The notes under the pieces: generated by a model
What the model was told of the DNA's origin: nothing
Database searches by the model: none
Seen by the model: only the letters and a program-made list of their open reading frames with translations
In this document: in pieces, positions 16,975 to 31,815 of the stretch
Numbering within the stretch: the first letter of the stretch is position 1
Layout: the number at the start of each line of letters is the position of its first letter
Made by a program: the position numbers and the translations under genes
NCBI GenBank assembly: GCA_010202845.1
Contig: CP047921.1
Coordinates: 780,001 to 812,000 of the forward strand
Direction: 5' to 3'
Length of the DNA stretch: 32,000 nt
From: Candidatus Saccharibacteria bacterium oral taxon 488
Lineage (GTDB): Bacteria > Patescibacteriota > Saccharimonadia > Saccharimonadales > Saccharimonadaceae

Positions 16975-19900
16975 TTAATCCAACAAACTCGCTCCGCCAG
17001 CGTCATACGACGCGCGCTTATGACTCCACTCGTTACCATAGCGCTTGGCCTGCTCCAATACCATGTCAGTTGCCAACGCCTGCTGGTCTGGCGGGTAGCC
17101 ATATTTTGCCAAAGTCTTTTTGACGTTAACTTTCAGTTTTGCCTGAACATTCCTGCGCTCCGCCCAGTCAATCGTCGCATCACGACGAACTTGCTCTAGT
17201 AACACTTTTGCGATATCACGCAGCTGCGCGTCACCCAATACTTCACGAGCACTACTATTTTCAACCAGCGCATCATAAAAAATAATCTCATCCTCGCTTA
17301 GACCATCAACTGTTCCATTCTCAATAGTCTGGCGAATTTTCTGTCCGATGTTGATTAATTCCTCAATCACCTGCGCTGCCTCGATTGTCCCATTTCTATA
17401 ACGTGTCAAGGCTTGATTAAGCAAGTCAGAGAACTTGGTATCCTTGGCATAATTTCTCGAAAATCGTAGTTTAATTTCATCAGTTAAAAGTTTCTGCAGT
17501 GCTTCCACCGCCAAATTCTTGCGCTCCATATGACGAATCTCTGCCAAAAACTCATCGCTCAAGATCGACAGTTCCGGCTTTTCTAATCCCGCCGCCTCAA
17601 ACACATCAACCACACCCACTGGCGCAATCGCTTTGTCGACAATTTGTTTCAGCGCGCTTCGGTACTCAGCATCAGTCACAACTGTCGAGCTCGACACTTT
17701 CTCCAGCCGAGCTTTCACCGCCTGAAATAGCGCCACTTCTTCGCGGATTTCTAGCGCCTCGGGTCTCGGCATAGCCAGCGCAAAGGCCTTACTCAGTTCC
17801 AAAACATGCTGCTTCAACCGCTTCTCACCGTCTTCCAACCCCAAAATATATTCCTCGGCATCCAAAATGATTTGTAGCTGCTGGTTGGTCGGTGCGGTAA
17901 AATATCGCCGATAGTCAAAGTTGCCAAACAAATCGTGCACTACCTCATAGCGCATCTGCATCTGCGCCACCGCCTCAGCAATATCAAGCTGCGGTGCACC
18001 CTGTCCGCCACTTTGCGTATAGTCAGAGATAGCATCGCGCAGCGCCCCCGCCACACCCAGATAGTCAACCACCAAACCACCAGTTTTACCCGGAAACACT
18101 CGGTTGACTCGTGCAATTGCCTGCATCAAATTATGGCCCTTCAGTGGTTTATCCAGATACATGGTGTGCATATTCGGCACATCAAATCCCGTCAGCCACA
18201 TGTCACACACAATCACCAATTCCAGCGGATCATTTGGATCTTTGATACGCTTTTCGATCGCCTTTACCCGTTGTTTATTACGAATATGCGGCTGCAAGTG
18301 GTCAGGGTCACTAGCGCTACCGGTGATAATCACCTTGATCGCGCCGTGTGCGTCATCATCACTATGCCAATCTGGTCGATACGCCACAATTTTTTCATAC
18401 AAATCCGCCGCAATACCGCGGCTCATCGTCACGATCATACCTTTACCACTCAGTACATCTTGCCGAGCCTCAAAGTGCTGAATAATGTCCAAAGCGATAG
18501 TATTCAGCCGCTCGCTATTACCGACGATGGCTTCTTTTTGTGCATACTCGGCCTTCAACGCATCCTGACGACTCAGTTCTTCGCCCTCCAGCAAATCATC
18601 AACTTCCTTATCCAGCCACTGCCGCGTTACCTCGTCCATATTCAAATCAACCAGCCGACTCTCATAATAAATCGGTACCGTTGCGCCATCTTTCACCGCC
18701 TGCTCGACGTCATAAATATCGATATAGTCGCCAAACACTGCTGGCGTTGACTTATCATCCGTTTCAATCGGCGTACCCGTAAAGCCAATATAGCTCGCAC
18801 CCGGCAAGGCATCACGCATATATTTGGCATAACCATATACTAGCTGGACGTCGCTAGCTCGAACATGCGCCTTCAAACCATATTGGCTACGATGCGCCTC
18901 ATCTGCCATCACGATAACATTGCGTCGATCGGTCAAAATTGGCAATTTATCCTCGTCATCCTCAGGCGAGAATTTTTGGATTGTTGTAAAGATAATCCCA
19001 CCTGCTTCGCGCTGCAACAGCTTCCTGAGTTCACTCCGTGAATTAGCTTGCTTCGGATCTTCCCCCAGGAGCTCGCGACAGGCGCTAAACGTACCGAATA
19101 ATTGACCATCAAGATCATTGCGGTCAGTCACCACCACGATGGTCGGGTTATGCAAATCGCGCGATTTCATCAGCTTGCCAGTATAAAACACCATACTCAA
19201 GCTCTTGCCCGACCCTTGCGTATGCCAGACTACGCCAGCCCGCTGGTCGCCACGTTCACCGCTGGCTACTAGCGTCCGATCCAGTGCCTTATTCACTACC
19301 CAGTACTGATGATAAGCAGCAACTTTCTTGATCAATTTGTCACCATCACTACGCTCAAATACGATAAAATTCTGCACCATATCCAGCAAGCGCTCAGGCG
19401 TGCACGCACCACGCAGCAGCACTTCCAGCATCGGCACATTGCCAACTTCTTTTTCGCCATCAATCGTTTTCCAAGGCATCATTCGCTCCAGCGGGCTAGT
19501 GATCGTACCCATCTCCGCCTCTAGCCCATCACTGGTGACACACAGCTCATTGAACCGAAATAGGTCACTAATCTCGCGCTTGTACGTCTGGATTTGCTGA
19601 TACGCTGTCGCCAAATCGGCCTTCGTATCAGCCGCATTTTTTAGTTCAATCACCACCAGCGGCAGCCCATTTACAAACAGTACAATGTCCGGCCGGCGAT
19701 TATAATCGCCCTGCAGAACCGTCAGCTGATTGACCGCCGCAAAATCGTTGTTTTTTGGCGAGGTAAAATCAACCACCCGCACAATATCGTGCTTAATCTC
19801 GCCGCTCGATGTGCGATATTGCACCGGCACGCCCGCCACTAGCAGTTGATGAAAATCGTGATTATTCTCAACTAAGCTCGGTTTACTAATCTGCGTCAAC

Positions 19901-20106
19901 CGCCGCATCGCCTCCTTCAAGGCTGATTCTGGAATGTGCGGATTGAGCCGCGCCAAAGCACTATATAGACGCCCAAGCAATACCATCTGCCGCAACTCAC
20001 GCTCAGCCGCAGCACCGTCCGGACCAATGTCCGGTCCGTACAAAATCTGCCAGCCGATATTAGCCAGGATATCAAGCGCGTGTTGTTCGATTTGAGATTC
20101 GGTCAT
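16975..20106 (-). CDS. hsdR: Type I restriction endonuclease subunit R
   Basis: N-terminal PD-(D/E)xK (RPDIVLFVNGLPLVVIELKNA) and SF2 helicase motifs (HTQGSGKS, MADEAHRSQ). 1043 aa. Confidence 0.95.
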   Translation of the reverse strand: MTESQIEQHALDILANIGWQILYGPDIGPDGAAAERELRQMVLLGRLYSALARLNPHIPESALKEAMRRLTQISKPSLVENNHDFHQLLVAGVPVQYRTSSGEIKHDIVRVVDFTSPKNNDFAAVNQLTVLQGDYNRRPDIVLFVNGLPLVVIELKNAADTKADLATAYQQIQTYKREISDLFRFNELCVTSDGLEAEMGTITSPLERMMPWKTIDGEKEVGNVPMLEVLLRGACTPERLLDMVQNFIVFERSDGDKLIKKVAAYHQYWVVNKALDRTLVASGERGDQRAGVVWHTQGSGKSLSMVFYTGKLMKSRDLHNPTIVVVTDRNDLDGQLFGTFSACRELLGEDPKQANSRSELRKLLQREAGGIIFTTIQKFSPEDDEDKLPILTDRRNVIVMADEAHRSQYGLKAHVRASDVQLVYGYAKYMRDALPGASYIGFTGTPIETDDKSTPAVFGDYIDIYDVEQAVKDGATVPIYYESRLVDLNMDEVTRQWLDKEVDDLLEGEELSRQDALKAEYAQKEAIVGNSERLNTIALDIIQHFEARQDVLSGKGMIVTMSRGIAADLYEKIVAYRPDWHSDDDAHGAIKVIITGSASDPDHLQPHIRNKQRVKAIEKRIKDPNDPLELVIVCDMWLTGFDVPNMHTMYLDKPLKGHNLMQAIARVNRVFPGKTGGLVVDYLGVAGALRDAISDYTQSGGQGAPQLDIAEAVAQMQMRYEVVHDLFGNFDYRRYFTAPTNQQLQIILDAEEYILGLEDGEKRLKQHVLELSKAFALAMPRPEALEIREEVALFQAVKARLEKVSSSTVVTDAEYRSALKQIVDKAIAPVGVVDVFEAAGLEKPELSILSDEFLAEIRHMERKNLAVEALQKLLTDEIKLRFSRNYAKDTKFSDLLNQALTRYRNGTIEAAQVIEELINIGQKIRQTIENGTVDGLSEDEIIFYDALVENSSAREVLGDAQLRDIAKVLLEQVRRDATIDWAERRNVQAKLKVNVKKTLAKYGYPPDQQALATDMVLEQAKRYGNEWSHKRASYDAGGASLLD

Positions 20107-20264
20107 AAGTATTTATATTTTATCAAATAAAAGTATATTTTTGCTTAATTTCAAATTACCCATTGACATATCTCATAATATATATTAATTTGGAGATGGT
20201 AGGTTGATAGGAATATCTAGCCGTCCACTCAGCGTATGGCGGGACCCGTATGGGAACTTACCTC

Positions 20265-20294
20265 AAAAGAGCATCTGGTATCAGGTGCTTTTTT
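20265..20294. terminator. Hairpin terminator between the DUF3800 gene and hsdR (better formed on the + strand)
   Basis: Plus-strand RNA reads GCATCTG-gtat-CAGGTGC (one G.U) followed by TTTTTT. The minus-strand RNA has a C.A mismatch and is followed by TCTTTTG. It lies 1 nt from the DUF3800 stop. Confidence 0.6.
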
Positions 20295-20295
20295 G

Positions 20296-21162
20296 TTATT
20301 CTGACTTACACCATTTAATTTTTCCAATCTCTGGTAATTTTATTAATCCATAACCTCTAACCTGCCGTGTTAATTTGTTGCAATACACATTGTCAGATAT
20401 CTTCTCAAAAAATGGATACATTGGTAAAATTTCCTGATCTGGCTCATCCCATTTATCGCCATAGTCAATGAACTGTCTTAACACATTGTACGCAACCGTA
20501 TCAGCCAACTGTAAAAAATTAGAGTTTTTTGATTCCTCAAATCGGACAGAAACATGACTGTATTTTTTATGAAACGAGCCAAGGTCAATAGTTTTATCAG
20601 CAATCTGCAGTATACTACCCTGATCGCGTTTTTTTGTCTTCACTTGATGATCCATTTGGTCAAATATAATAGTACACTCTCTATTTGGATGCATTTCTAT
20701 ACGATCAAACATCACTTGTGCAGTAATATCAAGAGGACTCTTTGCAGTACGCAAATTTTTATAGTATCTCTTATCTAGCAAAACTGCCTGAATCTGTATA
20801 GCCTCTTTATTTTGGTTAAATATCTCATACCAGAAACCCTCGATGAAGTTCTTTAGTTGACACCTAGTAACCCCAAATGGTTGTATATAGTGCTTTTCCT
20901 GTTTTTGTGGATTACGGAGATTAACTGAACGAATCTCTACATTCTTTGTACCAAACACTTCTATCTTTTTAGCATTTATGATCGGATTTAACTCTGCCAA
21001 TAGATCATGTTCAATATATACACCAGCCAACACAAAATAATTAAGTTCCCAGAATTTACGATTTTGCGATGTCCTAGCAGGTGGCGAGTTTACAAGCGAA
21101 TACTGGTATGGAGTATCCCACTGCTTAGATCCGCTGTCATCAATAAACAAATAGCTACTCAT
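20296..21162 (-). CDS. DUF3800 domain protein
   Basis: N-terminal YLFIDDSGS and C-terminal FLQLADTVAYNV resemble the two conserved DUF3800 motifs as I recall them. AT-rich gene nested in the R-M locus. Confidence 0.6.
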   Translation of the reverse strand: MSSYLFIDDSGSKQWDTPYQYSLVNSPPARTSQNRKFWELNYFVLAGVYIEHDLLAELNPIINAKKIEVFGTKNVEIRSVNLRNPQKQEKHYIQPFGVTRCQLKNFIEGFWYEIFNQNKEAIQIQAVLLDKRYYKNLRTAKSPLDITAQVMFDRIEMHPNRECTIIFDQMDHQVKTKKRDQGSILQIADKTIDLGSFHKKYSHVSVRFEESKNSNFLQLADTVAYNVLRQFIDYGDKWDEPDQEILPMYPFFEKISDNVYCNKLTRQVRGYGLIKLPEIGKIKWCKSE

Positions 21163-21205
21163 AAGTCATCCTGTCAGAATCTGCGCTTTATACATCTCTT
21201 TATAT

Positions 21206-22030
21206 TTAATCTTTATTTTCATCTATAATCATATACTCATCGTGACTGTTTGTACCAGCAGAAGCTTCTTTATTACTATACTCAGAAATTACTTTATCCA
21301 ACTCCATAAGCTCCTTGCCAAAAATACCAAAAGCAAACGCTGGCGCAAGTTCCTGTGAATAACTTACAACAAGGCCAGATGGCAAAACTACAGAGAGTCT
21401 GGCTTCAGTAGCGCTGACATGCGAATGTTGGTCTTTTTTTACTTCATTGGTATTTACTGATAAAGAGTTCAGCGTCTCCCCAATACTACAACTCTCTGCA
21501 CGTGACTGGTCTATAGTGTCATTGATATTATCAAACATTAAAACGCCGTTTTTTAAAACACCCACAAACTCAGCCGATTTCCTAAAATTAGCCACAGCAG
21601 TGCCAGCAGCATTCTCCTGAATTCCATAATTTCGAATTAGAATACTTTCGAGCATTTGTGGTAAAGATTTTCCACCATATTCTGCCATTAGCTTCTGGTA
21701 TAAAGAGGGTTTATTAAATGCCTCTACAAGAACTTGTGCACGCTCTTCTTCACTTACATAGTGAAAGAATCTTTGTGCTAAATCCGACAGGCTATATACA
21801 TTACCATTACGATCAAGCATACCAAAGTGGACACACGAAGCAATCTTAGATCCAGAGCTTCCCGTTACTCCCTTATAGCCCAAAGCCACAGCCATATGAT
21901 CCCTAGCATAAGGTCCATCACCAAGCTTCTCTTTCAAGGTCTTCGTCGCTTCAATTACTTCTTCCAGTGTAAAAGCGGGGTACGAAGCACTTCTTTTACG
22001 ATTTTTCTTAATTACTATATTATCTTTCAT
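21206..22030 (-). CDS. Hypothetical protein (274 aa); the N-terminal half may be helical/wHTH-like
   Basis: Long ORF with SD AAGGAG 6 nt upstream. I recognise no family. It sits 43 nt upstream of the DUF3800 gene. Confidence 0.6.
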   Translation of the reverse strand: MKDNIVIKKNRKRSASYPAFTLEEVIEATKTLKEKLGDGPYARDHMAVALGYKGVTGSSGSKIASCVHFGMLDRNGNVYSLSDLAQRFFHYVSEEERAQVLVEAFNKPSLYQKLMAEYGGKSLPQMLESILIRNYGIQENAAGTAVANFRKSAEFVGVLKNGVLMFDNINDTIDQSRAESCSIGETLNSLSVNTNEVKKDQHSHVSATEARLSVVLPSGLVVSYSQELAPAFAFGIFGKELMELDKVISEYSNKEASAGTNSHDEYMIIDENKD

Positions 22031-22094
22031 TTTGTCTCCTTTATTTACTGATACTAGTTTATCAGCTATTCAGGCTCTTATCAAGTATATATCT

Positions 22095-22111
22095 GTTGTA
22101 TTATATACAAC
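22095..22111. promoter_or_regulatory. Perfect 17-bp palindrome GTTGTAT-tat-ATACAAC containing a TATAAT-like core, upstream of the 274-aa gene
   Basis: Located in the 169-nt hsdS/274-aa intergenic region. The minus strand reads GTTGTATATAATACAAC. Confidence 0.45.
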
Positions 22112-22199
22112 TATAGTTTTACGGCTTATATCCCCTTGGGTATACCTCGACTCAGCCGTAGAGATTCTTTCGCCTATAGGGAGTGGCTCTTTAGTTCTT

Positions 22200-23285
22200 T
22201 CAAACTAGTTTTGGCAAAAGCAAATCACGAATGTTAGATAAATAATCTATTTGTTTCTTGTTTTTATGTATCATATCAAATAATGGTCGCACTCTCTGCT
22301 CGAAATCATTAAACTCGCAATCTGATAAATCAGCAATCTCCAAAAGCTCTATGTGCTTTGGATAAATATGCGGCTGACCAGAGCCAGTTTGCATATCGTA
22401 TATTTCTTTTTGCTTATTCTTGAGGAACAAATAATAGGTATAAACATATTTGGTAATTGTTGAGTCAATATACGAAGAGTCTGCCGACCAAACTGGTTCA
22501 CCCCAGACAGATACAAAACCAGCATTTGCTCCGGATGCACTTATCGTGATAACTGGCGCGGTCGTATTTGCTTCATTGTGAAATCCGGCTGGCTTCAGTC
22601 CACCGCTAATCACCGGCGTGTCACCACAAATCATATCTCTAGCTTGCAAACTTCTACCTCTTTTTGGATGAAACTTTTTCCCTAAAGGTATGGTCCGTAT
22701 ATTACCATTACTCTGCTTAGTTTTATCAACAAAATAATGACGAAAGAGAGCTTGACCGAGCTGCTCGAGGGTTTCGTTCATGCGGCGATTGAGCTCGATT
22801 TTTTCATCAAGACTGCCGAGGATATTGGCAATTTTCTTTTGGGTTTCTAAATTTGGTATACTGACACTGACAACATCAAAAGTGCTACGAGTTATCGTAT
22901 TAAATACACCACCGTGTGACTGCCTTCTTAGATCATTAACAGATTTTTTCAATAGATAATAAAGAAAATTTTGATCAACCCCTGCTTTTGCCCTAATTCC
23001 ATAGCAAGATTGATTAAAAGCCATTGGTCGCCTCAGTTGAGCCAATTCGCCCACAGTACCGCGTGCAGATATGATTATATCTCCTTTGTTTAGCAGTTTC
23101 GTACTAGAGCTCTCCAGCCCAAGACTAGTGATTGCTTTTTCGGTTTGATCCACCCAGCGTCTGTCACCCCCAAAATCAACCACGGACAGCCACGGTATGT
23201 CACCACTCCAAAACTCGGGTTTGTTTGTCTTCGGGGTGCCGCCACCTATGAGCTCGATGATATCACTTAAAACAGCTGTTCTCAT
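22200..23285 (-). CDS. hsdS: Type I R-M specificity subunit
   Basis: TRD start IGGGTPKTNKPEFWSGDIPWLS, central conserved helix LDEKIELNRRMNETLEQLGQALFRHYF, a second TRD, and a C-terminal LLPKLV. The ATG overlaps the stop of the GHKL gene (TAATG). Confidence 0.9.
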   Translation of the reverse strand: MRTAVLSDIIELIGGGTPKTNKPEFWSGDIPWLSVVDFGGDRRWVDQTEKAITSLGLESSSTKLLNKGDIIISARGTVGELAQLRRPMAFNQSCYGIRAKAGVDQNFLYYLLKKSVNDLRRQSHGGVFNTITRSTFDVVSVSIPNLETQKKIANILGSLDEKIELNRRMNETLEQLGQALFRHYFVDKTKQSNGNIRTIPLGKKFHPKRGRSLQARDMICGDTPVISGGLKPAGFHNEANTTAPVITISASGANAGFVSVWGEPVWSADSSYIDSTITKYVYTYYLFLKNKQKEIYDMQTGSGQPHIYPKHIELLEIADLSDCEFNDFEQRVRPLFDMIHKNKKQIDYLSNIRDLLLPKLV

Positions 23286-25282
23286 TATCCTTCTAACCCC
23301 AATTTCTCAAAGAATATTCGGTGACGCACGACTGCATCATTTAGCAGTTTTTCCCACGTTACGAATTCAATTCTGAGATTAATATTGTCCTGTATTAAGA
23401 ACCACCCTTTATTGTCTGGCATTGATTTTAAGTTTTTCTCTTCAATCAACCATTTTTCAACCTTATTATCAACATCCGCTACTATATAACCATAGAAGGG
23501 TGTTGTGGGTGAGATATGAATCCTACTTCCTTTTGGTGTCTTATAGTCGCCATTTCTCATGCTGTTAACATAACGAATTATTTGTTGTATAGGGTCTTCT
23601 TTAGAAGACGCATCTACAAAGTCATTTCGACCAGGTCGTTTAAATTCAAAGATACTTACTGGATTAGAAGCCTCCGAGCCGTCTCTATACGCAACATTAT
23701 AATGAAATGCTGCGATATCTGGACGGTCCTTATTTTCATTAAATATGTTTTTATCCGAACTGAGATACTGAGTAAGATTTAACCCTTCGTCTATAATCCA
23801 CAAATTATGGCCATCATATATCGTATCATTTGAATCTGATTTTGTAGGAAATATTATATCATGAACTGCCTTTTCCGTATCGTATTCTCCCAAATCATTC
23901 CATTCCAAAGTCTTTTTAAATAATTCCAGGATAGATTTACGAAACGCTATATATTGTGCTAAATCACTATAGCTTGCGTCTTTTACTTCTCTAATCAGCT
24001 TTTTAGCATTCGACTGTGCTTCTATATAATTCCTGTTTCTACTAGTCAACTGAGAGATGTTTCTCTTTATCTCTAAGTCACGTTCATACTTTGCCTTATG
24101 TAGAATTAACTCTATGTCATCCTGGGTAGGATTTGCCTTTATTGCTTCAAAATCTATGTCGTCAATATATGGCTTGTACCAAATGTTACTTTGGGTATAT
24201 TTCTCAAACTTCTCTCTTTTTACTTTTGACCTTAGACTAACCACACCTTCAAATTCCTTTTTTGCGATTTCTGCAATAGCCTTTTCAATATCCTCTCCCG
24301 ATACTGGATATAGTGGGTCATGCTTTTCACCAAAGTTAAAACTGTCACGTTCTACCGTAACATTATCCTCCAGATATTCTCCTTGAACGTAGAATCTTAT
24401 TATGTAGTTACGAGATCTCTTCTCTCCATCAACCAGTACGTCTTCGGTAAAGTCAGAGTAGAAATCTGGAATATACACATCCAAGCTCTTCTCGGTAACT
24501 GCTTGGTTTCGTGCAGTTAGAACAATCTTGCTCTTTTGGTTTCGAGGCTTAAGGATTTTAAACATTTTATATCTTAGTTCTATACCGTTAACAATAAAAG
24601 TATCACTTTTCTTGAGCTGAATTAGAGAATCATCTCTTGTGCCAATTTGCTCATTTAGGATTATTGGGATATCTAGCGCATCATCTTCAAATACAATCTG
24701 CGGGCATGTATATGATGGGTCGGAAAAATAACTAAGGATCTGTTCCAGAATGCGATGTGAGATAATTTCTGGATCTTTGTCAAGTTTTACACCCTTAATG
24801 TTTAAAAGTCGAAGTATCGTACCAGTCTCTGACGCGCTAGGTGAATTACTAACCTTATCATTAACTATAACGTCATATTGCTTACCAAAATCGAATGAAC
24901 GATGTTTGTATTTGTTATCTTCAATAAACGTGCTTTCTATGTGTACGTCGTTAAAATGCCGCAGATAAAAAAATCGACCAAAACCCTTTCCTCCTATCGA
25001 CCTTTTAAATTGGCTATATATGGTGTCGAAAGAATCGCGATTTTCTTTATTAAAACCGATACCATTATCGGAGACTTCCACAGAAGTTACATCTGCCAAC
25101 TTATCACCGTCCGTTGATACAAATGGCGGATTCCTAATAATCCGAATACGGATTTCCCCATCATTTCGGCCTGACTTATCTATAGCATCAATAGCATTAG
25201 TTATTGCCTCTGTAATAGGAGTATACGGGGTGGACTTAGCCCTAATATTATTAATAACTCCTTGGATAAATACTTTACTCAT
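23285..25282 (-). CDS. GHKL (Bergerat-fold) ATPase fused to a C-terminal PD-(D/E)xK nuclease-like region
   Basis: N-box EAITNAIDA (aa 25-33), G1 box DNGIGF (aa 72-77) and a lid GGKGFGRF (aa 97-104). C-terminal RPDIAAF...(23 aa)...SIFEFKRPG...DPIQQIIRY (aa 520-570) fits the PD...ExK...Q pattern. Confidence 0.7.
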   Translation of the reverse strand: MSKVFIQGVINNIRAKSTPYTPITEAITNAIDAIDKSGRNDGEIRIRIIRNPPFVSTDGDKLADVTSVEVSDNGIGFNKENRDSFDTIYSQFKRSIGGKGFGRFFYLRHFNDVHIESTFIEDNKYKHRSFDFGKQYDVIVNDKVSNSPSASETGTILRLLNIKGVKLDKDPEIISHRILEQILSYFSDPSYTCPQIVFEDDALDIPIILNEQIGTRDDSLIQLKKSDTFIVNGIELRYKMFKILKPRNQKSKIVLTARNQAVTEKSLDVYIPDFYSDFTEDVLVDGEKRSRNYIIRFYVQGEYLEDNVTVERDSFNFGEKHDPLYPVSGEDIEKAIAEIAKKEFEGVVSLRSKVKREKFEKYTQSNIWYKPYIDDIDFEAIKANPTQDDIELILHKAKYERDLEIKRNISQLTSRNRNYIEAQSNAKKLIREVKDASYSDLAQYIAFRKSILELFKKTLEWNDLGEYDTEKAVHDIIFPTKSDSNDTIYDGHNLWIIDEGLNLTQYLSSDKNIFNENKDRPDIAAFHYNVAYRDGSEASNPVSIFEFKRPGRNDFVDASSKEDPIQQIIRYVNSMRNGDYKTPKGSRIHISPTTPFYGYIVADVDNKVEKWLIEEKNLKSMPDNKGWFLIQDNINLRIEFVTWEKLLNDAVVRHRIFFEKLGLEG

Positions 25283-25318
25283 TATAAATGCTCCCAGCCC
25301 TATTTTTTACTATCTCAT

Positions 25319-26332
25319 TCATCTCTTCCCCTCAACCCTCTTCTGCACAGCCCTCAACTCCTCAAGATATTGCTGCTCTATACTACTCAGCTCTTGATTA
25401 CGCATACGTTCTTTGTATGATTCATACTCTTTGGCAACTTTGGTGAGCATGGTTTTGTGTGATATTTTGCCCGGGTTATCAAGGACGCCCTTACCGTAGG
25501 TAGCCGCAAATTTGTCAACTTCACGCACCCAATCAGCCATGCGCATTGGTTCATGATTGATAGCCTTGAGCTCAGCGAGATCAAAAAAGGCACTCACGAG
25601 GCGGTTGAGTATGCCAAGTTCATCAGCCATCAAATAGTTTTTAGCAATTTGCGCTTCACTTTTGGTAGGTTGCTGACCGCGAAACGTCGTGAGCCCTAAG
25701 AATGGCTTGTCAGAATCAACCCTGGAGTAAATAACCTCAGCGGCAGTCAACATATTAACAGCGTAGTGCAGCTTATTCTGAACTATCTGGAAAAACTCTA
25801 TTTGCTCTTTGGAGCTCGGATTATAATCTTGACTGGTGGCGAATAAATCTAACACTTGCCGATACAATATTTTTTCACTACTACGAATATCTCGAATTCG
25901 CTCAAGTAGCTCTTTCCAATAATTTCCGCCACTATTTTCTTTAAGACGCTCATCGTCCATGACAAAGCCCTTAGTAATATATTCACGCAGTCTTTCGGTA
26001 GCCCAGATACGAAAATTCGTTGCTATATTTGACTTCACGCGGTAACCAAGCGAGATGATTAAGTCAAGATTATAATGTTTTGTCGTGTACTTTTTACCGT
26101 CTGCAGCAGTTAGTAAGAAATCCTTACATACTGAAGCCTCATTTAGCTCGCCCTCATCAAAAATATTCTTAATATGCATGGTAATATTTGGTCGCGAGGT
26201 ATCAAAAAGGTTGGCTAACTGAGCTTGAGTAAGCCATATTGTTTCACCTTGGAACCTTACATTAATCTGCGGCTTACAATCATCGCCAACATACACCACC
26301 ATCTCGCCGTTTGGATTATCGCCGCTTATCAT
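25319..26332 (-). CDS. rhuM: RhuM family protein
   Basis: [41 protein letters not shown]...[10 protein letters not shown]...[12 protein letters not shown] matches the RhuM family. The ATG overlaps the hsdM stop (ATGA at 26329-26332). Confidence 0.85.
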
Positions 26333-27816
26333 TTGATTTCTTTCCCTATTTTGGCAAGATTTTCTTTTATTTTTACCTCTAGCTCACGGCTCTTCGCAAA
26401 CTGCCCTTCAAGCTCAGCCGTCAACCTAGCAAATTTCTCGACAAACAGTTCATCGTCTTCCTCGGCCTCTTCGACACCAACGTAACGACCGGGTGTCAGC
26501 ACGTAATCATGCTGCTTGATTTCCCCTAGTGCAGCAACTTTGCAAAAACCTGGCTGGTCAGTGTAATCCGCGCTGGCGGTTTTATAATCATGATATGTCT
26601 TCGCTACCCTGGCGATATCTTCCGCAGTCAGTTCGCGGTTACGACGGGTGACCATTTTGCCCAAATTACGCCCATCAATGAACAGCACTTTGCCGTGACG
26701 ATTGGCACGATCACGCGACACAAACCACAGACAGCATGGTATAGCCACATTAAAAAACAACTGGCTCGGCAGCGTGACGATAGCGTCAACCATATCATTA
26801 AGAACCAGCTGTTTGCGGATGTCACCTTCACCGCCAGTTTGACTGCTCATACTCCCGTTTGCCAGCACAAAGCCTGCAGTACCGCGCGGGCTCAAATGGT
26901 GAATCATATGTTGAATCCACGCAAAGTTAGCGTTACCCTTTGGTGGCAGACCATACTTCCAGCGCGGGTCAGCCTGCAAGTGCTCTTGACCCCAATCGCT
27001 GATGTTAAATGGCGGATTGGCCAAGATATAATCAGCTTTCAGGTCGAGAAGCTGGTCATCCACCAGGGTGTCGCCGCGTTTGATATTCGCGTCAATTCCC
27101 CGAATTGCCATATTCATTTTAGCGAGTCGCCAAGTCGTTTCGTTCAGTTCCTGGCCATACACCGCGATATCGCTAACGCGGCCTGCGTGCTCCTCGACAA
27201 ACTTCTCGCTCCAAACAAACATACCGCCGCTACCGCAACATGGGTCATACACGCGCCCGCTGTATGGCTCAAGCATTTCTACTAGCAATTTCACGATGGA
27301 GCGCGGCGTGTAGAATTCACCGCCATGCTTACCCTCACTGTCAGCAAACATACCCATAAAATATTCGTACACTTGACCAAGCAAGTCTTTGGAACTGGCA
27401 GTGTCGAATTTGATATTGGTAAATAAATCGATAAGTTCACCCAGGCGACGTTTGTCCAGGGCTTCACGAGCATAATTTTTCGGCAAAACACCTTTCAAAC
27501 TTGGATTATCGCGTTCAACTGCTTCCATGGCACTATCGACTAGCACGCCAATTTCTGGCTGCTTGGCGCTCGCCACCAGGTGTTCCCAACGAGCCTCCTT
27601 GGGAATCCAAAAAATATTCTCCGCCAAATACCAATCCCGGTCTTCAGGATCATAATTCTCATCAATCGCTGCCTGATGTCGCACCGAAAACGCATCTGAA
27701 ACATATTTTAGAAAAATCAGCCCCAATACCACATATTTATAATCCGACGAGCTGATATTACCCCGTAGTTTATCCGCCGCAGCCCACAACTGCTTTTCAA
27801 GCTCCCTTGTATTCAT
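26329..27816 (-). CDS. hsdM: Type I R-M N6-adenine DNA methyltransferase subunit
   Basis: HsdM N-terminal domain ([10 protein letters not shown]), AdoMet motif [11 protein letters not shown] and catalytic NPPF. Confidence 0.95.
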
Positions 27817-27844: not shown

Positions 27845-28498
27845 TTACTCTGAGTGTAGCAGACTTTTGTAGTCAGTTTTCGTAACAATAATATGATCAT
27901 TAAGCGTAATACCAAGCAGTTTTCCCGCTTCCGCCAGCCTGTTCGTGACATCTTTATCAGCCTGACTGGCCTCCAAGCTCCCGCTCGGATGATTATGCGC
28001 CACGATGATCGAGGCAGCGCGGTCGGCGATGGCATCGGCGAAGACCTCGCGCGGGTGTACCAGGCTGGCCGTCAACGTGCCGATAGTCACCACCCGCTTG
28101 GCAATCAAACGATTCGCACCGTCCAGTGTCAGGCAAACAAAATATTCCTGCTTTTTGTCGCGAATGTCGGCCAGCAGTTCGACGGCCTTTTCTGGGCTGT
28201 CGATGATTGGCTGGTCGCTATCTAGCAAGTACCGCCGCGCCAGCTCCAAACTCGCCAGAATCACCGGGATTTTCGCTTCGCCCAAGCCAACCACGCTGCG
28301 CAGATCATCATACGAAACATCACCGCCTTTTTGACGCAAAATTTTCAGCACATCGCGCGCAATTTTACCAACATCTGCCTGCTTATTGCCGCTGCCAATA
28401 ATCGCCATCAGCAGTTCCAAGTCGCTCAACCGCGCCGTACCGTAACGCGCCAATTTCTCGCGCGGACGGTCGATTTTCGGCTTGTCGAGCACCTTCAT
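27845..28498 (-). CDS. radC: RadC-like JAB/MPN domain protein
   Basis: N-terminal HhH-like region and the JAMM motif HNHPSG, preceded by E...(SIIVAHNHPSGS). Confidence 0.9.
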   Translation of the reverse strand: MKVLDKPKIDRPREKLARYGTARLSDLELLMAIIGSGNKQADVGKIARDVLKILRQKGGDVSYDDLRSVVGLGEAKIPVILASLELARRYLLDSDQPIIDSPEKAVELLADIRDKKQEYFVCLTLDGANRLIAKRVVTIGTLTASLVHPREVFADAIADRAASIIVAHNHPSGSLEASQADKDVTNRLAEAGKLLGITLNDHIIVTKTDYKSLLHSE

Positions 28499-28540: not shown

Positions 28541-29413
28541 ATGCGACGGCAAACTATTTCCTTTTCTCACAATTCTCACACCATACCGTGCGAAATACTT
28601 TTTACGAGTGATGACATGTCGTTTGATACGATCCTCCTGCTCGGTAGTGGTCAAGTTGAGCACATATTTCACCGGGTAGCCCAAATATGCCCGCCCAACA
28701 TCGCCGTTGTTCAAGGCGCGCCCCACTGGCTTCTTAATGAAGATAATGCCAATGATTTCATGGCAGCCTTCATCAAACAAGCCCTTGACTATTTACTAGC
28801 ACACACCCAAACTCAACAGCTTCATATCATCGCTGAATCACAAGCCGCCCCGTCAACAATCTTTTGTTGTGCACAACCAGAGTATGTACCACGCCTCAGC
28901 CAACTCACCCTCATTCAACCACTTGGACTCACACACAACTATTACCAATCCCACCGACGTGTCATCAAGCTATTCCAGCGGCGTGTAGTAAAAAATATGT
29001 TGCATCAATTCGGATCGCTTCTCACTGACAAATATATGCGGCGCAATTATCGCACTGTCATGAAGCGAGTTAATTTTACTAATATCACAATCCAACGCCA
29101 ATTTGTCCATGGATTATCTGTTAATAGCTTCAGTGATCTTCAGCAGATTCACCATAATCGCCACATTGTTATCATATCGGGGAAGCAGGACGCGTTATTT
29201 CCACCTCGTGTCATAAAACAAAATCTTACCAAACATCAATTACCAATCCCTGTAATCCGCGTACCTCGCATAGCTCACTCATCACTAGCCACGCGTCAAG
29301 GCTATCGGCTGCTCAAAATCGCGCTGGCTTGTCGACCGCGCGCTACACATATTGCCACTACCAACACACCGACCAATCGCGACGCTAATGACGTGTCAGT
29401 CGCACCGGATTGA
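28541..29413 (+). CDS. Alpha/beta-fold hydrolase (putative)
   Basis: Order of elements fits an alpha/beta hydrolase: LLLGSG (oxyanion region), nucleophile elbow IIAESQAA, acid VIISGKQDALFP, and His in RIAHSSL. The ORF-track start at 28331 lies inside radC, so I use the ATG at 28541. The ATG at 28616 is an alternative. Confidence 0.55.
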   Translation: MRRQTISFSHNSHTIPCEILFTSDDMSFDTILLLGSGQVEHIFHRVAQICPPNIAVVQGAPHWLLNEDNANDFMAAFIKQALDYLLAHTQTQQLHIIAESQAAPSTIFCCAQPEYVPRLSQLTLIQPLGLTHNYYQSHRRVIKLFQRRVVKNMLHQFGSLLTDKYMRRNYRTVMKRVNFTNITIQRQFVHGLSVNSFSDLQQIHHNRHIVIISGKQDALFPPRVIKQNLTKHQLPIPVIRVPRIAHSSLATRQGYRLLKIALACRPRATHIATTNTPTNRDANDVSVAPD

Positions 29414-31815
29414 ATTGTCGCCACGGCTTCCTCTTCCGGATTGAGTCGGCTATCATCTGACCATAAGCCCAGCGATGGGTGGTTTTTGACAACCAAGATA
29501 TTGTCACTCACGGTGCTCGTTTCGCTATTATAACCGTAATTATCAACCGCGCCGGCAACCGCCAAATCATTCTGCTCGCCCAGTTCAGACTCTACCGCCT
29601 CGTCCAACTCAGCATCAGGTATTAGCTCAACGGCTGGTGAGGTGGAAGTAACTATCTGCTCCTCTGACTCATAATCATTGGTGATTTCAGGAACTGATAC
29701 CGCCTTAGAATTGTCCAATTGCCCCACGGAATCCATATCAACACCAATCTCGCCGTCTACAGAGAGTTCCAAATCACCAGGTTCTTCACACACCGTAACG
29801 ACTTCTGCCGGCGATATCACCGCGGCTACTTCAGTTAAGGTTAATTCTGATTCCACTCCCGGCAAATCCTGCTTCACAAAAAACACCTCTTCCTCAGCCC
29901 AAATCTTATCTTCACTGCGACCGATGTCCGCGGTGGTGTCAGAGCAATCAAGTTGCCTAAAGACAGGAATTTGCGGCTCGGTCGCATCCGTATCAACCGC
30001 TAATTCATCACCCAATTTCTGTGGCAGATCAACGGCAAGTTGAGTGTCATTTCTATCAACTGCTGTGTGTTTATCTGGTAGATTCGGCGTAATGTCTATC
30101 ATTTCTACAGATGCCGCCACATCAGTTTTATTTGTTGTATTTACCACATCATTCGCTACAAATACATCTGTTTCTACATCATCAATCTTCGGCTGTACCA
30201 AATTATTATCAAAATCGGCACGGTCGCCGATAATCAAAGAGTTCTCGCTACTTTCGACAGACATCTGCTCCTGTGACAATATAGCTTGCGGTGTTCTGCC
30301 AGATTGACCAATAGAATAACTGCCTGGCGATTGGTACGTCTCGTTTTTATCGTATTCCGCCGGCACGCTAGCCGCGACCGTTCGCTCCTGAGATAGCGGC
30401 ACATCGTCTACGTCCGGCGTCAAGTTACCGGGCTGTACATTATCAGCACCGTCAAGAGCTTGGATAGAGCCATCACAACCTGCCACCGTGCCAAGTTCAG
30501 CTTCGCGAGGCTGTGTATTTTGTAGCGGCTTGACATTAGAACCATCAATTGATTCTGCCGCCGGCTTATTCATCTCTGTTGCATCAAATTGCGCTGCCGA
30601 CCGCTGTTCAGAAGCTGACGTGAAGCTGCTTGCTGCCGTTTGTCTCGGTTCAGAATCAGACAGTTTTGGCGCTGCCGCAACAACGTTATTTTCTTTCGGA
30701 TGTTCAATTGATGATGGTTTTATACTTGACGGCGCAGTAGCTTCATCACCATTATATGTATTTTCTACAACACTATCGACGAGTTTATTTTCGCCAGACA
30801 ATAAGTTGGCAGTTTCATTTTTTGGCAAAGTATTATTCTCGTTAGCGGTTTGAGTATCCTCGCTTACCGCTGGCGATGACAGCACAGTTCTCGTTTTCGT
30901 TCGTGTCGGTATGTCTGAAGATTCAAATGCTGGCTGCTGGTTTTCTTTATCTGCTGCACCAGAAATAACATCAAAAGTCTGCTGTTTTATTTCTATCGAC
31001 GGACGATTTTCCTCTGTTGGTTCGGCAAAATACTCCTCGCCAGATGTATTAACGAACGCTCCGCTAACATTTTCTGGCTGGGCTTCTCTAATCTCATCAA
31101 CATTATCAGCGGCATCTTCCGTAGCAACTGTTGGTTCCAAAAACGATTGTTCCGCCTCCTTAATATCCGCAGGTTCGTCTGGAGATTCTGTTGTTTCACT
31201 AGTCGGGATTTCATTGCCTTGATTCGGCGGCGCAACCTGCTCAATTAGTTTATCCGTCTTATCATCGCTTGTTTCAGTGATATCTGCATTTGTTAAATCC
31301 GCCCCGCTATCAGGATTAGCGTAACCCGCCACGACAATGCCGTCATCGTCGTCACTCAACAGATCTCTTAAATACGATTCGCGTTCTGGCGCTGGCTGCA
31401 AATTTTCATTAGCAAAATTGCGCATACGTAAAATCGGACAGTCGTCGCGTGCCGCGCAACTAGCACAGGCGGCGCTCGCCACACCTTGACATATTGCTAC
31501 CCTTCGCTCATCACTCATCCGGTTTTCCGACGAATTAATCTCGCTTTTGCCGGCAAGCGATAACGCGTCAACCGGCGCATCAGGCATATCTTTTAAGTCG
31601 GTGCTGCCATCCATGAAAGTATCAAGCTTTTCTTTGCCGCCAGCCACCGCTACTAAGTCAAGGCCGCTTGCCGCCTCGTCCGTATCAGCATTTACCTCTT
31701 CACCAATGTCGCCAATGCCAGACGAAAAATCCTCACCTCTCAGCGACGAAATGTCAAAACCATCACCGTCAATTCCTGCCGGTGATGATTCTCTTGTAGT
31801 CGCCTCCCCAATCAT
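29302..31815 (-). CDS. Hypothetical 837-aa highly acidic low-complexity protein with an N-proximal 4-Cys motif and a C-terminal hydrophobic anchor
   Basis: Uninterrupted 2.5-kb ORF rich in D/E/S/T/N. C-x7-C-x2-C-x5-C-P at aa 109-127 (nt 31438-31491). C-terminus LVGVLVVAICVA-RGRQ. No signal peptide. The ATG overlaps the upstream stop (ATGA). Confidence 0.7.
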   Translation of the reverse strand: MIGEATTRESSPAGIDGDGFDISSLRGEDFSSGIGDIGEEVNADTDEAASGLDLVAVAGGKEKLDTFMDGSTDLKDMPDAPVDALSLAGKSEINSSENRMSDERRVAICQGVASAACASCAARDDCPILRMRNFANENLQPAPERESYLRDLLSDDDDGIVVAGYANPDSGADLTNADITETSDDKTDKLIEQVAPPNQGNEIPTSETTESPDEPADIKEAEQSFLEPTVATEDAADNVDEIREAQPENVSGAFVNTSGEEYFAEPTEENRPSIEIKQQTFDVISGAADKENQQPAFESSDIPTRTKTRTVLSSPAVSEDTQTANENNTLPKNETANLLSGENKLVDSVVENTYNGDEATAPSSIKPSSIEHPKENNVVAAAPKLSDSEPRQTAASSFTSASEQRSAAQFDATEMNKPAAESIDGSNVKPLQNTQPREAELGTVAGCDGSIQALDGADNVQPGNLTPDVDDVPLSQERTVAASVPAEYDKNETYQSPGSYSIGQSGRTPQAILSQEQMSVESSENSLIIGDRADFDNNLVQPKIDDVETDVFVANDVVNTTNKTDVAASVEMIDITPNLPDKHTAVDRNDTQLAVDLPQKLGDELAVDTDATEPQIPVFRQLDCSDTTADIGRSEDKIWAEEEVFFVKQDLPGVESELTLTEVAAVISPAEVVTVCEEPGDLELSVDGEIGVDMDSVGQLDNSKAVSVPEITNDYESEEQIVTSTSPAVELIPDAELDEAVESELGEQNDLAVAGAVDNYGYNSETSTVSDNILVVKNHPSLGLWSDDSRLNPEEEAVATIQSGATDTSLASRLVGVLVVAICVARGRQASAILSSR

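What the first reader, a model, noticed from the sequence alone, without database searches (positions are those of the whole stretch)
23285..25282. GHKL ATPase fused to a restriction-endonuclease-like C-terminus, translationally coupled to hsdS
The N-terminal 105 aa contain all three Bergerat-fold motifs: ExxxNAxDA, DNGIGF and GGKGFGRF. The C-terminal region has RPD(522)-x23-E(546)-F-K(548)-RPG followed by a Q-containing helix (DPIQQIIRY), nt about 23570-23722. That is the PD-(D/E)xK pattern, and it resembles the ExKxP cores of Shedu/DUF4263-type nucleases. Its stop overlaps the hsdS ATG, and its last codons supply the hsdS SD. So it is co-translated with the specificity subunit rather than being a passenger. 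An ATP-gated nuclease wired into a type I system is not part of the textbook HsdRMS complex.
Basis: partly seen in the sequence, partly recalled or inferred. Interest (0 to 1): 0.75.

Follow-up and report, generated by a model that had tools for sequence, protein, structure and literature searches.

The report
GHKL-ATPase Shedu nuclease inside type I R-M operon
The gene encodes a known kind of single-protein anti-phage nuclease (an ATPase fused to a restriction-type nuclease, like Vibrio cholerae VcSduA) that has lodged inside a type I restriction-modification operon of a Saccharibacteria genome, most likely as an independent tenant and not as a new subunit of the restriction enzyme.

Summary
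The 665-aa ORF (23285-25282, minus strand) carries every GHKL motif and a C-terminal E-D-ExK-QxxxY nuclease core. These residues are invariant in 38 homologues. Its TAA stop overlaps the hsdS ATG.

The domain reading is right, and the family is already described. It matches paraMORC3 (Iyer et al. 2008). It is a full-length homologue of VcSduA, the GHKL-type Shedu of V. cholerae. It shares 29% identity over 682 columns (E 2e-74) with a 61%-identical VcSduA orthologue. VcSduA protects against phage on its own, and E27A and K557A abolish protection. These align with E25 and K548 here.

The claim that the protein is wired into the type I enzyme is not supported:
- Relatives sit in conjugative elements, on plasmids and alone.
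- Others sit at the 3' end of type I, IIG, III and ISP operons.
- No partner gene is conserved, and hsdS follows it only in close Saccharibacteria relatives.
- Its G+C is 0.36, against about 0.49 for hsdM and hsdR.
- It lies among other swappable cargo: RhuM, and DUF3800 or a reverse transcriptase.

Verdict: an embedded autonomous defence gene, a new member of a known kind. Cooperation with restriction-modification is not excluded.

The parts
23285..25282 (-). Gene for the 665-aa GHKL-ATPase/PD-(D/E)xK nuclease (VcSduA-type Shedu, paraMORC3 family)
   Evidence: ORF and translation. Conserved full-length family of about 665 aa. 29% identity over 682 columns, E 2e-74, to a VcSduA orthologue.
24788..25282 (-). 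GHKL (Bergerat-fold) ATPase domain, aa 1-165. Motif I is E25/N29, motif II is D72-x-G74-x-G76, and the ATP lid is G97-G102.
   Evidence: Pfam HATPase_c aa 23-102, E 9e-8. Invariant motif residues. Fold match to Hsp90, topoisomerase VI-B and GyrB.
24308..24775 (-). Beta-rich middle (transducer-like) domain, aa 170-325
   Evidence: AlphaFold model, pLDDT about 90. Foldseek alignments of 360-510 columns to GHKL-plus-transducer modules. Gu et al. call the equivalent domain N24.
23909..24298 (-). Long helical arm, aa 329-458, with lower model confidence over aa 400-450
   Evidence: Secondary structure of the AlphaFold model. Aligns with the corresponding region of VcSduA.
23303..23887 (-). C-terminal PD-(D/E)xK nuclease domain, aa 466-660
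   Evidence: Separate AlphaFold model, pLDDT 88.5, pTM 0.87, alpha-beta-beta-beta-alpha-beta order. Pfam HSDR_N hits in 11 of 21 members (best E 1.3e-4) and PDDEXK_9 in 6 of 21. The top, non-significant PDB fold hits are McrC, Nt.BspD6I, BstEII and FokI.
23570..23719 (-). Catalytic core: D522, E546-F-K548, Q567-xxx-Y571. E470 on the preceding helix, outside this span, completes the E-D-ExK pattern.
   Evidence: All invariant in 38 homologues. K548 aligns with K555 of the V. fluvialis orthologue, the position of VcSduA K557. The same PD...ExK...QQIxxY layout is seen in this window's own HsdR.
23283..23287 (-). TAATG stop/start overlap between the nuclease gene and hsdS
   Evidence: Sequence read. 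The same one-base overlap is present in relatives L007 and L013-L015, but not in L016, where the gap is 307 nt.
22200..23285 (-). hsdS, the type I specificity subunit (context)
   Evidence: Pfam Methylase_S E 4e-35, PADLOC Specificity_I E 5e-100.
25319..26332 (-). RhuM-family gene (PADLOC candidate PDC-S05), a second embedded cargo gene. Its start overlaps the hsdM stop by 4 nt.
   Evidence: Pfam Virulence_RhuM E 2e-100, PADLOC PDC-S05 E 1e-140. Coordinates.
26329..27816 (-). hsdM, the type I methyltransferase (context)
   Evidence: Pfam N6_Mtase E 7e-112 and HsdM_N.
20296..22030 (-). Variable cargo slot between hsdS and hsdR. Here it holds an unknown 274-aa ORF (21206-22030) and a DUF3800 protein (20296-21162).
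   Evidence: Pfam, PADLOC and NCBIfam scans. The slot is replaced by a reverse-transcriptase gene of about 520 aa in L007, L013 and L015.
16975..20106 (-). hsdR, the type I restriction subunit (context)
   Evidence: Pfam HSDR_N, SWI2_SNF2 and T1RH-like_C; PADLOC REase_I.

Best explanation
The gene encodes an autonomous single-protein anti-phage nuclease of the GHKL-Shedu kind (VcSduA-like, the paraMORC3 family of Iyer et al.). It sits as cargo inside a type I R-M operon.

Proposed mechanism:
1. The protein dimerises through its N-terminal GHKL domains, as GHKL ATPases do.
2. ATP binding and hydrolysis drive closure of a clamp formed by the transducer-like middle domain and the long helical arm. 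The residues involved are E25 (catalytic base), N29 (Mg2+), D72 (adenine contact) and the G97-G102 lid.
3. This movement licenses the C-terminal PD-(D/E)xK nuclease (E470, D522, E546, K548, Q567, Y571) to cut invading DNA, giving direct rather than suicidal immunity.

What is shown here: the motifs, their invariance, the folds, full-length homology to VcSduA, and the lack of a conserved partner gene.

What is shown for VcSduA by others: defence as a lone gene, loss of defence in E27A and K557A, and no culture collapse at high multiplicity of infection.

What is inferred: the dimer and clamp, DNA as substrate, what triggers the protein, and that this Saccharibacteria copy is active.

Placement in the operon gives co-expression and co-transfer with hsdM and hsdS. 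The TAATG overlap preserves hsdS translation downstream of the insert.
For: Motifs and family:
- All motifs are present and invariant in 38 homologues.
- The family is large and of fixed length. 523 of 185,579 species genomes carry a relative. 1,825 50%-identity cluster representatives match the C-terminal profile, and the top 150 are almost all 650-700 aa with the domain at the C-terminus.

Fold:
- The full model has pLDDT 84 and matches Hsp90, topoisomerase VI-B, GyrB and SMCHD1.
- The nuclease domain model has pLDDT 88.5. Pfam HSDR_N and PDDEXK_9 give weak hits in many members.

Homology to VcSduA:
- 27% identity, E 4e-37, to the 399 residues of VcSduA that could be recovered.
- 29% identity, E 2e-74, end to end with the V. 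fluvialis protein, which is 61% identical to VcSduA.
- E25 aligns with E27, and K548 with the lysine at the K557 position.
- Members of this subfamily (Shewanella SFRI_RS18805, P. gingivalis PG_RS06305) appear in the published VcSduA hit list.

Literature:
- The paraMORC3 description matches: GHKL plus S5 plus a RecB-like E-D-ExK nuclease, often standalone.
- VcSduA function.

Autonomy:
- Homologues occur in a conjugative element, beside a type IIG system and on 56 plasmids.
- Downstream neighbours share no recurring family.
- G+C is 0.36 against 0.49-0.50 for hsdM and hsdR.
- Neighbouring cargo is swapped between strains.
- TgvAB is a precedent for an independent system embedded in a type I operon.
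Against: - No experiment exists on this protein or on any Saccharibacteria member.
- Identity to VcSduA is only 27-29%.
- The C-terminal part of VcSduA itself could not be read, because the table cuts sequences at about 400 residues. The nuclease-domain equivalence therefore rests on a 61%-identical orthologue.
- Standard Shedu models do not recognise the protein. Pfam SduA_C hits 1 of 21 members at E 0.06. No PADLOC SduA model hits.
- Foldseek of the nuclease domain against the PDB gave nothing significant and no Shedu structure in the top 50.
- The gene recurs at the 3' end of R-M operons with 4-nt start/stop overlaps. This could reflect real functional cooperation and not mere co-location.
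Confidence: 0.78

Rival explanations
1. Functional partner of R-M without being a subunit. The nuclease acts on products of restriction, such as free DNA ends or stalled translocation complexes, or it serves as a backup that fires when phage anti-restriction proteins disable the type I enzyme. On this view its placement in R-M operons is selected for cooperation.
For: At least 19 of 78 species-level loci have an N6-adenine methyltransferase gene within four genes. Ten have hsdS and eight have hsdR. Among 68 co-oriented upstream neighbours, N6_Mtase occurs 13 times, Eco57I 8, Methylase_S 6 and ResIII 6. The gene directly follows type III Res, type ISP, type IIG, HsdM or HsdS, often with a 4-nt overlap. 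On the V. fluvialis plasmid it ends an hsdR-AAA-hsdM-hsdS-Shedu operon. Gu et al. suggest that Shedu may complement R-M or BREX.
Against: The R-M types involved are mechanistically different, so a specific molecular hand-off is unlikely to be shared. Most members have no R-M gene nearby. VcSduA protects E. coli as a lone gene. Clustering of unrelated defence genes is general.
Confidence: 0.13
2. A true extra subunit of the type I enzyme. The protein is co-translated with HsdS, assembles with HsdM/HsdS and supplies a second, ATP-gated nuclease directed by the specificity subunit.
For: TAATG stop/start overlap with hsdS. The hsdM-(rhuM)-GHKL-hsdS order is conserved in four related Saccharibacteria genomes and, without rhuM, in a 46%-identical relative.
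Against: hsdS follows the gene only in those relatives. In other type I loci the gene comes after hsdS (L020, L049, L073, L093) or after hsdM with no hsdS next to it (L077). Most family members have no type I genes at all. In L016 the overlap is lost and the gap is 307 nt. The operon already has an intact HsdR with its own nuclease motif. The low G+C marks the gene as an insert.
Confidence: 0.05
3. A housekeeping DNA-repair or DNA-topology factor (MutL- or MORC-like) that merely happens to lie here.
For: GHKL plus transducer plus nuclease is also the MutL layout. The fold matches topoisomerase and SMCHD1 ATPase modules.
Against: Distribution is sporadic, at 523 of 185,579 species. The gene is carried on plasmids and conjugative elements, its neighbours are rich in defence genes, and its G+C is atypical. 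These features do not fit a core function.
Confidence: 0.03

Closest known systems
VcSduA of Vibrio cholerae WASA lineage (A1552VC_00276), a GHKL-ATPase Shedu of Shedu type I-D (Adams et al. 2025, PMC12137116)
   Same: Same length class (665 against about 672 aa) and the same order of GHKL, middle domain, helical region and PD-(D/E)xK nuclease. Homology runs end to end: E 4e-37 to the available VcSduA fragment and E 2e-74 to a 61%-identical orthologue. The residues mutated in VcSduA (E27, K557) correspond to the invariant E25 and K548. Both are single genes in defence islands.
   Different: Only 27-29% identical, and it belongs to a different subclade (motif III is GGKGFGRF against GCRGVGRL). 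The host is a Saccharibacteria episymbiont. It is embedded between hsdM and hsdS, whereas VcSduA lies next to GrwAB in VSP-II. It has not been tested experimentally.
paraMORC3 family (Iyer, Abhiman and Aravind 2008, PMC2292703)
   Same: GHKL plus an S5-like domain plus a conserved C-terminal RE-fold domain with E-D-ExK motifs and RecB-like affinity. The paper reports it as common in Proteobacteria and Bacteroidetes, often standalone and otherwise in R-M neighbourhoods. The same pattern is seen here.
   Different: The original definition was purely computational, and no member sequence could be retrieved for direct comparison. Equivalence rests on the description and on Adams et al. equating VcSduA-like proteins with paraMORC3.
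Canonical Shedu SduA (DUF4263, Pfam PF14082)
   Same: A single-protein defence nuclease with an ExK-x-P core, a following Q-containing helix and a terminal strand-helix (VTWEKLL against ITFDELL). A profile-profile alignment puts these elements in register. It is also frequently found inside R-M loci.
   Different: Pfam SduA_C and about 25 PADLOC SduA models do not detect this protein or the VcSduA orthologue. The hhalign probability is only 13%. The D-to-E spacing is 24 residues against 15. The N-terminal regulator is an ATPase, not the usual non-enzymatic domains, and a dimer is expected where SduA forms a tetramer.
HsdR / RecB-family nuclease domain (Pfam HSDR_N)
   Same: PD...ExK...QxxxY motif layout, visible side by side with this window's own HsdR: RRPDIVLF...VIELK...YQQIQTY against DRPDIAAF...IFEFK...IQQIIRY. 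Weak HSDR_N hits occur in 11 of 21 members.
   Different: There is no significant pairwise or profile match to the HsdR N-termini available here. It is not attached to an SF2 motor.
TgvAB, Rlo genes and other systems embedded in type I R-M operons (Vizzarro et al. 2024, PMC11411939)
   Same: Independent defence genes lodged between hsd genes and expressed from the same operon.
   Different: The proteins are unrelated (GmrSD-like type IV enzymes).

Membership tests
GHKL ATPase superfamily | Bergerat-fold motifs I (ExxxNxxD), II (DxGxG) and III (glycine-rich ATP lid) | tested here: met
   E25/N29, D72/G74/G76 and G97-G102 are present and invariant in 38 homologues. Pfam HATPase_c E 9e-8, above its gathering score.
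GHKL ATPase superfamily | GHKL fold followed by a transducer (S5-like) middle domain | tested here: met
   The AlphaFold model (pLDDT 84) matches Hsp90, topoisomerase VI-B, GyrB-43K, TRAP1 and SMCHD1 over 360-510 columns, E 4e-11 to 1e-7.
paraMORC3 (Iyer et al. 2008) | Conserved C-terminal globular domain with E-D-ExK motifs of the restriction-endonuclease fold | tested here: met
   E470, D522 and E546-x-K548 are invariant. The domain model has the alpha-beta-beta-beta-alpha-beta order. Family description.
paraMORC3 (Iyer et al. 2008) | Sequence-profile affinity of that domain to RecB-family nucleases | tested here: inconclusive
   Sub-threshold Pfam HSDR_N hits in 11 of 21 members (best E 1.3e-4) and PDDEXK_9 in 6 of 21. 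The QxxxY motif is present. hhalign against a 5-sequence HsdR_N alignment failed.
VcSduA-type GHKL Shedu (Shedu type I-D) | Full-length sequence homology to VcSduA | tested here: met
   E 4e-37 over 409 columns to VcSduA residues 23-421. E 2e-74 over 682 columns to a 61%-identical orthologue. Subfamily members appear in the published VcSduA hit table.
VcSduA-type GHKL Shedu (Shedu type I-D) | Conservation of the residues whose mutation abolishes defence (E27, K557) | tested here: met
   E25 aligns with E27. K548 aligns with K555 of the orthologue, the K557 position. Both are invariant.
VcSduA-type GHKL Shedu (Shedu type I-D) | Anti-phage protection as a single gene, dependent on ATPase and nuclease | not testable with these tools
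   Shown only for VcSduA.
Shedu (DUF4263 nuclease) | Match to the DUF4263 / SduA_C model | tested here: not met
   Pfam SduA_C hits 1 of 21 members at E 0.06, below threshold. No PADLOC SduA model hits. The VcSduA orthologue also fails both, so the models do not cover this branch.
Shedu (DUF4263 nuclease) | Profile-profile or fold similarity of the nuclease domain to canonical SduA | tested here: inconclusive
Type I R-M enzyme subunit | Conserved genetic linkage with hsdM/hsdS/hsdR across the family | tested here: not met
   hsdS lies within four genes in 10 of 78 loci, and hsdR in 8 of 78. Downstream Methylase_S is found only in the Saccharibacteria relatives. Many members are on conjugative elements, on plasmids or alone.
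MORC proper | GhXhhpXXRhl motif in the S5 domain | not tested
   Not examined. The paper separates paraMORC families from MORC by the absence of this motif.

The most novel reading that the evidence does not exclude
GHKL-Shedu nucleases are not merely co-located with R-M systems but cooperate with them. They would be translated from the same message as the methyltransferase or specificity genes of type I, IIG, III and ISP systems. They would then act on the DNA ends or stalled complexes that restriction produces, or take over when a phage anti-restriction protein blocks the R-M enzyme. In a genome of about 1 Mb from a Saccharibacteria episymbiont, that would make one operon a layered immune unit.
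Probability: 0.15. Interest if true: 0.6.

Novelty: new member of a known kind. Interest (0 to 1): 0.3.

Why it matters
It matters in four modest ways.

1. It shows that VcSduA-type GHKL nucleases reach Candidate Phyla Radiation bacteria with very small genomes.
2. A single type I operon there holds at least three interchangeable cargo slots: RhuM, the GHKL nuclease, and DUF3800 or a reverse transcriptase. That is a compact example of nested defence.
3. The defence models tested here miss the gene. PADLOC 2.0 and Pfam DUF4263 find nothing, so such genes are under-counted in defence surveys.
4. The repeated 3'-terminal, overlap-coupled position behind four mechanistically different R-M types gives a concrete way to test whether Shedu-type nucleases and R-M systems cooperate.

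It does not reveal a new kind of restriction enzyme.

Tried and rejected
- Sequence search of the whole protein against the PDB found nothing. A profile of the C-terminal domain against the PDB gave only noise.
- Foldseek of the C-terminal model against the PDB gave no significant hit. The top hits were restriction-fold proteins at E 0.02-0.6.
- hhalign of the C-terminal profile against five HsdR N-termini aligned in the wrong register, probability 3%. BLASTP of the two nuclease cores was not significant. hhalign against a single canonical Shedu sequence was uninformative.
- NCBIfam and PADLOC scans of the protein were empty or noise.
- The published supplementary table with VcSduA hits is truncated in the journal copy. 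In the preprint copy, sequences are cut at about 400 residues, so the VcSduA nuclease domain itself was not seen. A V. fluvialis orthologue was used in its place.
- The Gu et al. table holds accession numbers only, and the Iyer et al. supplement holds no sequences.
- I first took locus L013 to be the source contig because it was listed at 100% identity. BLASTN shows it is about 94% identical and carries different cargo.
- I considered a MADS-like system because hsdM and hsdS hit the mad2 and mad5 models. I rejected it because the stronger hits are plain type I models and no mad model hits the GHKL protein.
Full report
**What is in the window.**
On the minus strand there is a compact gene row:
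- RadC (27845-28498)
- hsdM (26329-27816)
- a RhuM-family gene (25319-26332), whose start overlaps the hsdM stop by 4 nt
- the 665-aa ORF in question (23285-25282)
- hsdS (22200-23285)
- an unknown 274-aa ORF (21206-22030)
- a DUF3800 protein (20296-21162)
- hsdR (16975-20106)

The rest of the window encodes ordinary chromosomal functions: a ClpB-like ATPase, ABC transporters, an epimerase and a polysaccharide deacetylase. The closest public loci are Candidatus Saccharibacteria MAGs at about 91-94% nucleotide identity.

**Check of the observation.**
I aligned 38 homologues that are 37-82% identical to the query. The invariant columns include E25, N29, D72, G74, G76, G97, G98, G100, G102 and R103 in the N-terminal part. 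In the C-terminal part they include E470, H474, D522, E546, K548, P550, Q567 and Y571. This is conservation of catalytic positions, not chance.

The junction with hsdS reads GGATAATG, so the stop and start codons share one base. The proposed ribosome-binding site GAAGGA ends only 2 nt before the ATG, which is close for a Shine-Dalgarno element.

**Domain identity.**
Pfam finds only HATPase_c (aa 23-102, E 9e-8). NCBIfam, PADLOC and PDB sequence searches give nothing useful.

An AlphaFold model built from the alignment (pLDDT 84) shows four parts:
- a GHKL domain (aa 1-165)
- a beta-rich middle domain (aa 170-325)
- a long helical arm (aa 329-458)
- an alpha/beta C-terminal domain (aa 470-660)

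Foldseek against the PDB matches the first two parts to Hsp90, HtpG, TRAP1, topoisomerase VI-B, GyrB/ParE 43K fragments, topoisomerase II ATPase and SMCHD1. E-values run from 4e-11 to 1e-7 over 360-510 columns. The match therefore covers the ATPase plus transducer module.

The C-terminal domain was modelled on its own (pLDDT 88.5, pTM 0.87). Its element order is helix, three strands, helix, strand, as expected for a restriction-endonuclease fold. Foldseek against the PDB gave no significant hit. The best hits were restriction-fold proteins: McrC at E 0.023, then Nt.BspD6I, BstEII and FokI at E 0.2-0.6.

I scanned 21 family members' C-termini individually against Pfam. HSDR_N scored in 11 (best E 1.3e-4), PDDEXK_9 in 6 (best 3.6e-3) and SduA_C in 1 (E 0.06), all below the curated thresholds.

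The motif layout PD...ExK...QxxxY is that of HsdR/RecB-type nucleases. It can be read next to this window's own HsdR: RRPDIVLF...VIELK...YQQIQTY against DRPDIAAF...IFEFK...IQQIIRY. Direct pairwise and small-profile comparisons with HsdR were not significant.

**The family and its surroundings.**
The protein belongs to a large family of fixed architecture.
- 157 word-sharing relatives were found, nearly all 655-700 aa and aligned over 100% of the query.
- 523 of 185,579 species-representative genomes encode a relative, across many phyla.
- 1,825 50%-identity cluster representatives match the C-terminal profile. The best 150 are almost all full-length proteins with the domain at the C-terminus.

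Close Saccharibacteria relatives keep the order hsdM-rhuM-GHKL-hsdS with the same one-base overlap (L007, L013-L015). A 46%-identical relative (L016) has hsdM-GHKL with a 4-nt overlap, then a 307-nt gap before hsdS.

Elsewhere the context differs.
- A Bacteroidota member lies in a CTnDOT-like conjugative element beside a PRTRC-type cluster (PRTRC_E, Prok_Ub, Prok-E2_D and ThiF genes), with no R-M gene nearby.
- Another Saccharibacteria clade has it next to a type IIG system.
- 56 plasmids carry a homologue.

In 78 species-level loci, an N6-adenine methyltransferase lies within four genes in 19, hsdS in 10 and hsdR in 8. These counts come from HMMs I iterated on the fetched loci.

Pfam scans of co-oriented neighbours gave the following.
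- Upstream (68 proteins): N6_Mtase 13, Eco57I 8, Methylase_S 6, ResIII 6, HsdM_N 5, T5orf172/MUG113 4 and RhuM 3, plus type III Res, type ISP, Mrr, GmrSD and DarT-associated genes.
- Downstream (45 proteins): no recurring family. Methylase_S appears three times, only in the Saccharibacteria relatives. The rest is a mixture of defence and mobile-element genes.

The gene is therefore a mobile single-gene module. It is often parked at the 3' end of R-M operons of four different types, frequently with a 4-nt overlap, and it has no obligate partner.

In this window its G+C is 0.36. RhuM is 0.42, hsdS 0.41, the 274-aa ORF 0.39 and DUF3800 0.35, against 0.49-0.50 for hsdM and hsdR. The slot between hsdS and hsdR carries different cargo in sister genomes, a reverse transcriptase of about 520 aa. 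Both facts mark the inner genes as inserts.

**Comparison with what is known.**
Iyer, Abhiman and Aravind (2008) described paraMORC families of GHKL plus S5 ATPases in R-M neighbourhoods. Their paraMORC3 has an added C-terminal domain with E-D-ExK motifs and affinity to RecB nucleases. It is prevalent in Proteobacteria and Bacteroidetes, and a subset is standalone. That description fits this family point by point.

Gu et al. (2023 preprint) list GHKL-fold N-terminal domains, with a linked middle domain N24, among enzymatic Shedu types. They counted 602 of 5,499 Shedu genes inside type I-IV R-M systems.

Adams et al. (2025) showed the following for V. cholerae VcSduA, a GHKL ATPase fused to a PD-(D/E)xK domain that they assign to DUF4263:
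- it protects E. coli against Drexlerviridae and V. cholerae against phage X29
- E27A and K557A abolish protection
- cultures survive at high multiplicity of infection
- such proteins were previously called paraMORC3

I recovered the first 399 residues of VcSduA from the preprint's hit table. The window protein aligns to them at 27% identity over 409 columns, E 4e-37. The same table lists members of this very subfamily, for example Shewanella SFRI_RS18805 (33% identity, E 9e-68).

A V. fluvialis plasmid protein is 61% identical to VcSduA and has the same numbering. The window protein aligns to it from residue 11 to 663 at 29% identity, E 2e-74. In that alignment E25 pairs with E27 and K548 pairs with the lysine at the K557 position. 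That plasmid gene ends an hsdR-AAA-hsdM-hsdS-Shedu operon.

Neither Pfam SduA_C nor any PADLOC SduA model detects the V. fluvialis protein or this family. Failure of those models therefore says little about membership of the VcSduA branch.

A profile-profile comparison with a 22-sequence canonical DUF4263 alignment gave E 0.0021 but only 13% probability. ExK, the Q-containing helix and the terminal strand were in register. This is suggestive, not conclusive.

**Mechanism.**
The best-supported reading is an autonomous ATP-controlled nuclease. GHKL dimerisation and ATP turnover operate a clamp made by the middle domain and helical arm, and this licenses the C-terminal nuclease to cut foreign DNA.
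- Shown here: motifs, folds and homology.
- Shown for VcSduA by others: the need for both ATPase and nuclease activities, and autonomy.
- Inferred: the dimer and clamp, the substrate and the trigger.

The stop/start overlap with hsdS is best read as the arrangement that keeps hsdS translated after an insertion between hsdM and hsdS. hsdM and the RhuM gene overlap in the same way. An independent system embedded in a type I operon has a tested precedent in TgvAB.

**Verdict.**
The claim of a new ATP-gated nuclease wired into the type I complex is not supported. This is a new member of a known kind, in an unusual host. One question stays open: whether its habitual position behind R-M genes reflects cooperation.

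Noticed in passing
window 20107-22199 (compare L007, L013, L015): The stretch between hsdS and hsdR is a swappable cargo slot. Here, and in L014, it holds an unknown 274-aa ORF plus a DUF3800 protein. In three sister Saccharibacteria genomes the flanks are 88-94% identical, but the slot holds a reverse-transcriptase gene (RVT_1) of about 520 aa. Neither cargo hits any PADLOC model.
   Followed up: partly
window 25319-26332: A RhuM-family gene (PADLOC candidate PDC-S05, E 1e-140) sits directly after hsdM with a 4-nt ATGA overlap. The operon therefore carries at least two unrelated embedded genes between hsdM and hsdS.
   Followed up: partly
window 20000-26300: G+C drops to 0.35-0.42 across RhuM, the GHKL gene, hsdS, the 274-aa ORF and DUF3800. 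It is 0.49-0.54 for hsdM, hsdR and RadC, and 0.48 for the whole window.
   Followed up: yes
window 29302-31815: An 837-aa minus-strand ORF next to the RadC/type I block has no Pfam, NCBIfam or PADLOC match.
   Followed up: no
L093 (V. fluvialis plasmid pIDH5335-1) 1-7983: One operon carries hsdR, an AAA/ABC-type ATPase (best PADLOC hit mad3), hsdM, hsdS, a canonical Shedu (SduA, E 4e-170) and a VcSduA-type GHKL nuclease. The last two overlap by 4 nt, so two Shedu-type nucleases sit in tandem behind a type I system.
   Followed up: partly
L062, L076, L092 (upstream of the homologue): A recurring pair precedes the GHKL nuclease with overlapping stops and starts: a DEAD/ResIII helicase of about 690-760 aa and a T5orf172/MUG113 (GIY-YIG-like) protein of about 405 aa. 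An N6_Mtase-like gene lies a few genes further upstream. This may be an uncharacterised defence module.
   Followed up: no
L001-L006 (Bacteroidota): An identical 664-aa homologue (P0113) lies in several Bacteroidota genomes inside a CTnDOT-like conjugative element. It sits between a cluster of PRTRC_E, Prok_Ub, Prok-E2_D and ThiF genes and the tra genes, so conjugative elements spread this nuclease.
   Followed up: partly
window 20264-20295: A strong 14-bp stem-loop followed by a T-run lies on the plus strand just downstream of the DUF3800 gene, in the 189-nt gap before hsdR. Its A-run on the minus strand could make it a bidirectional terminator separating the cargo from hsdR.
   Followed up: no
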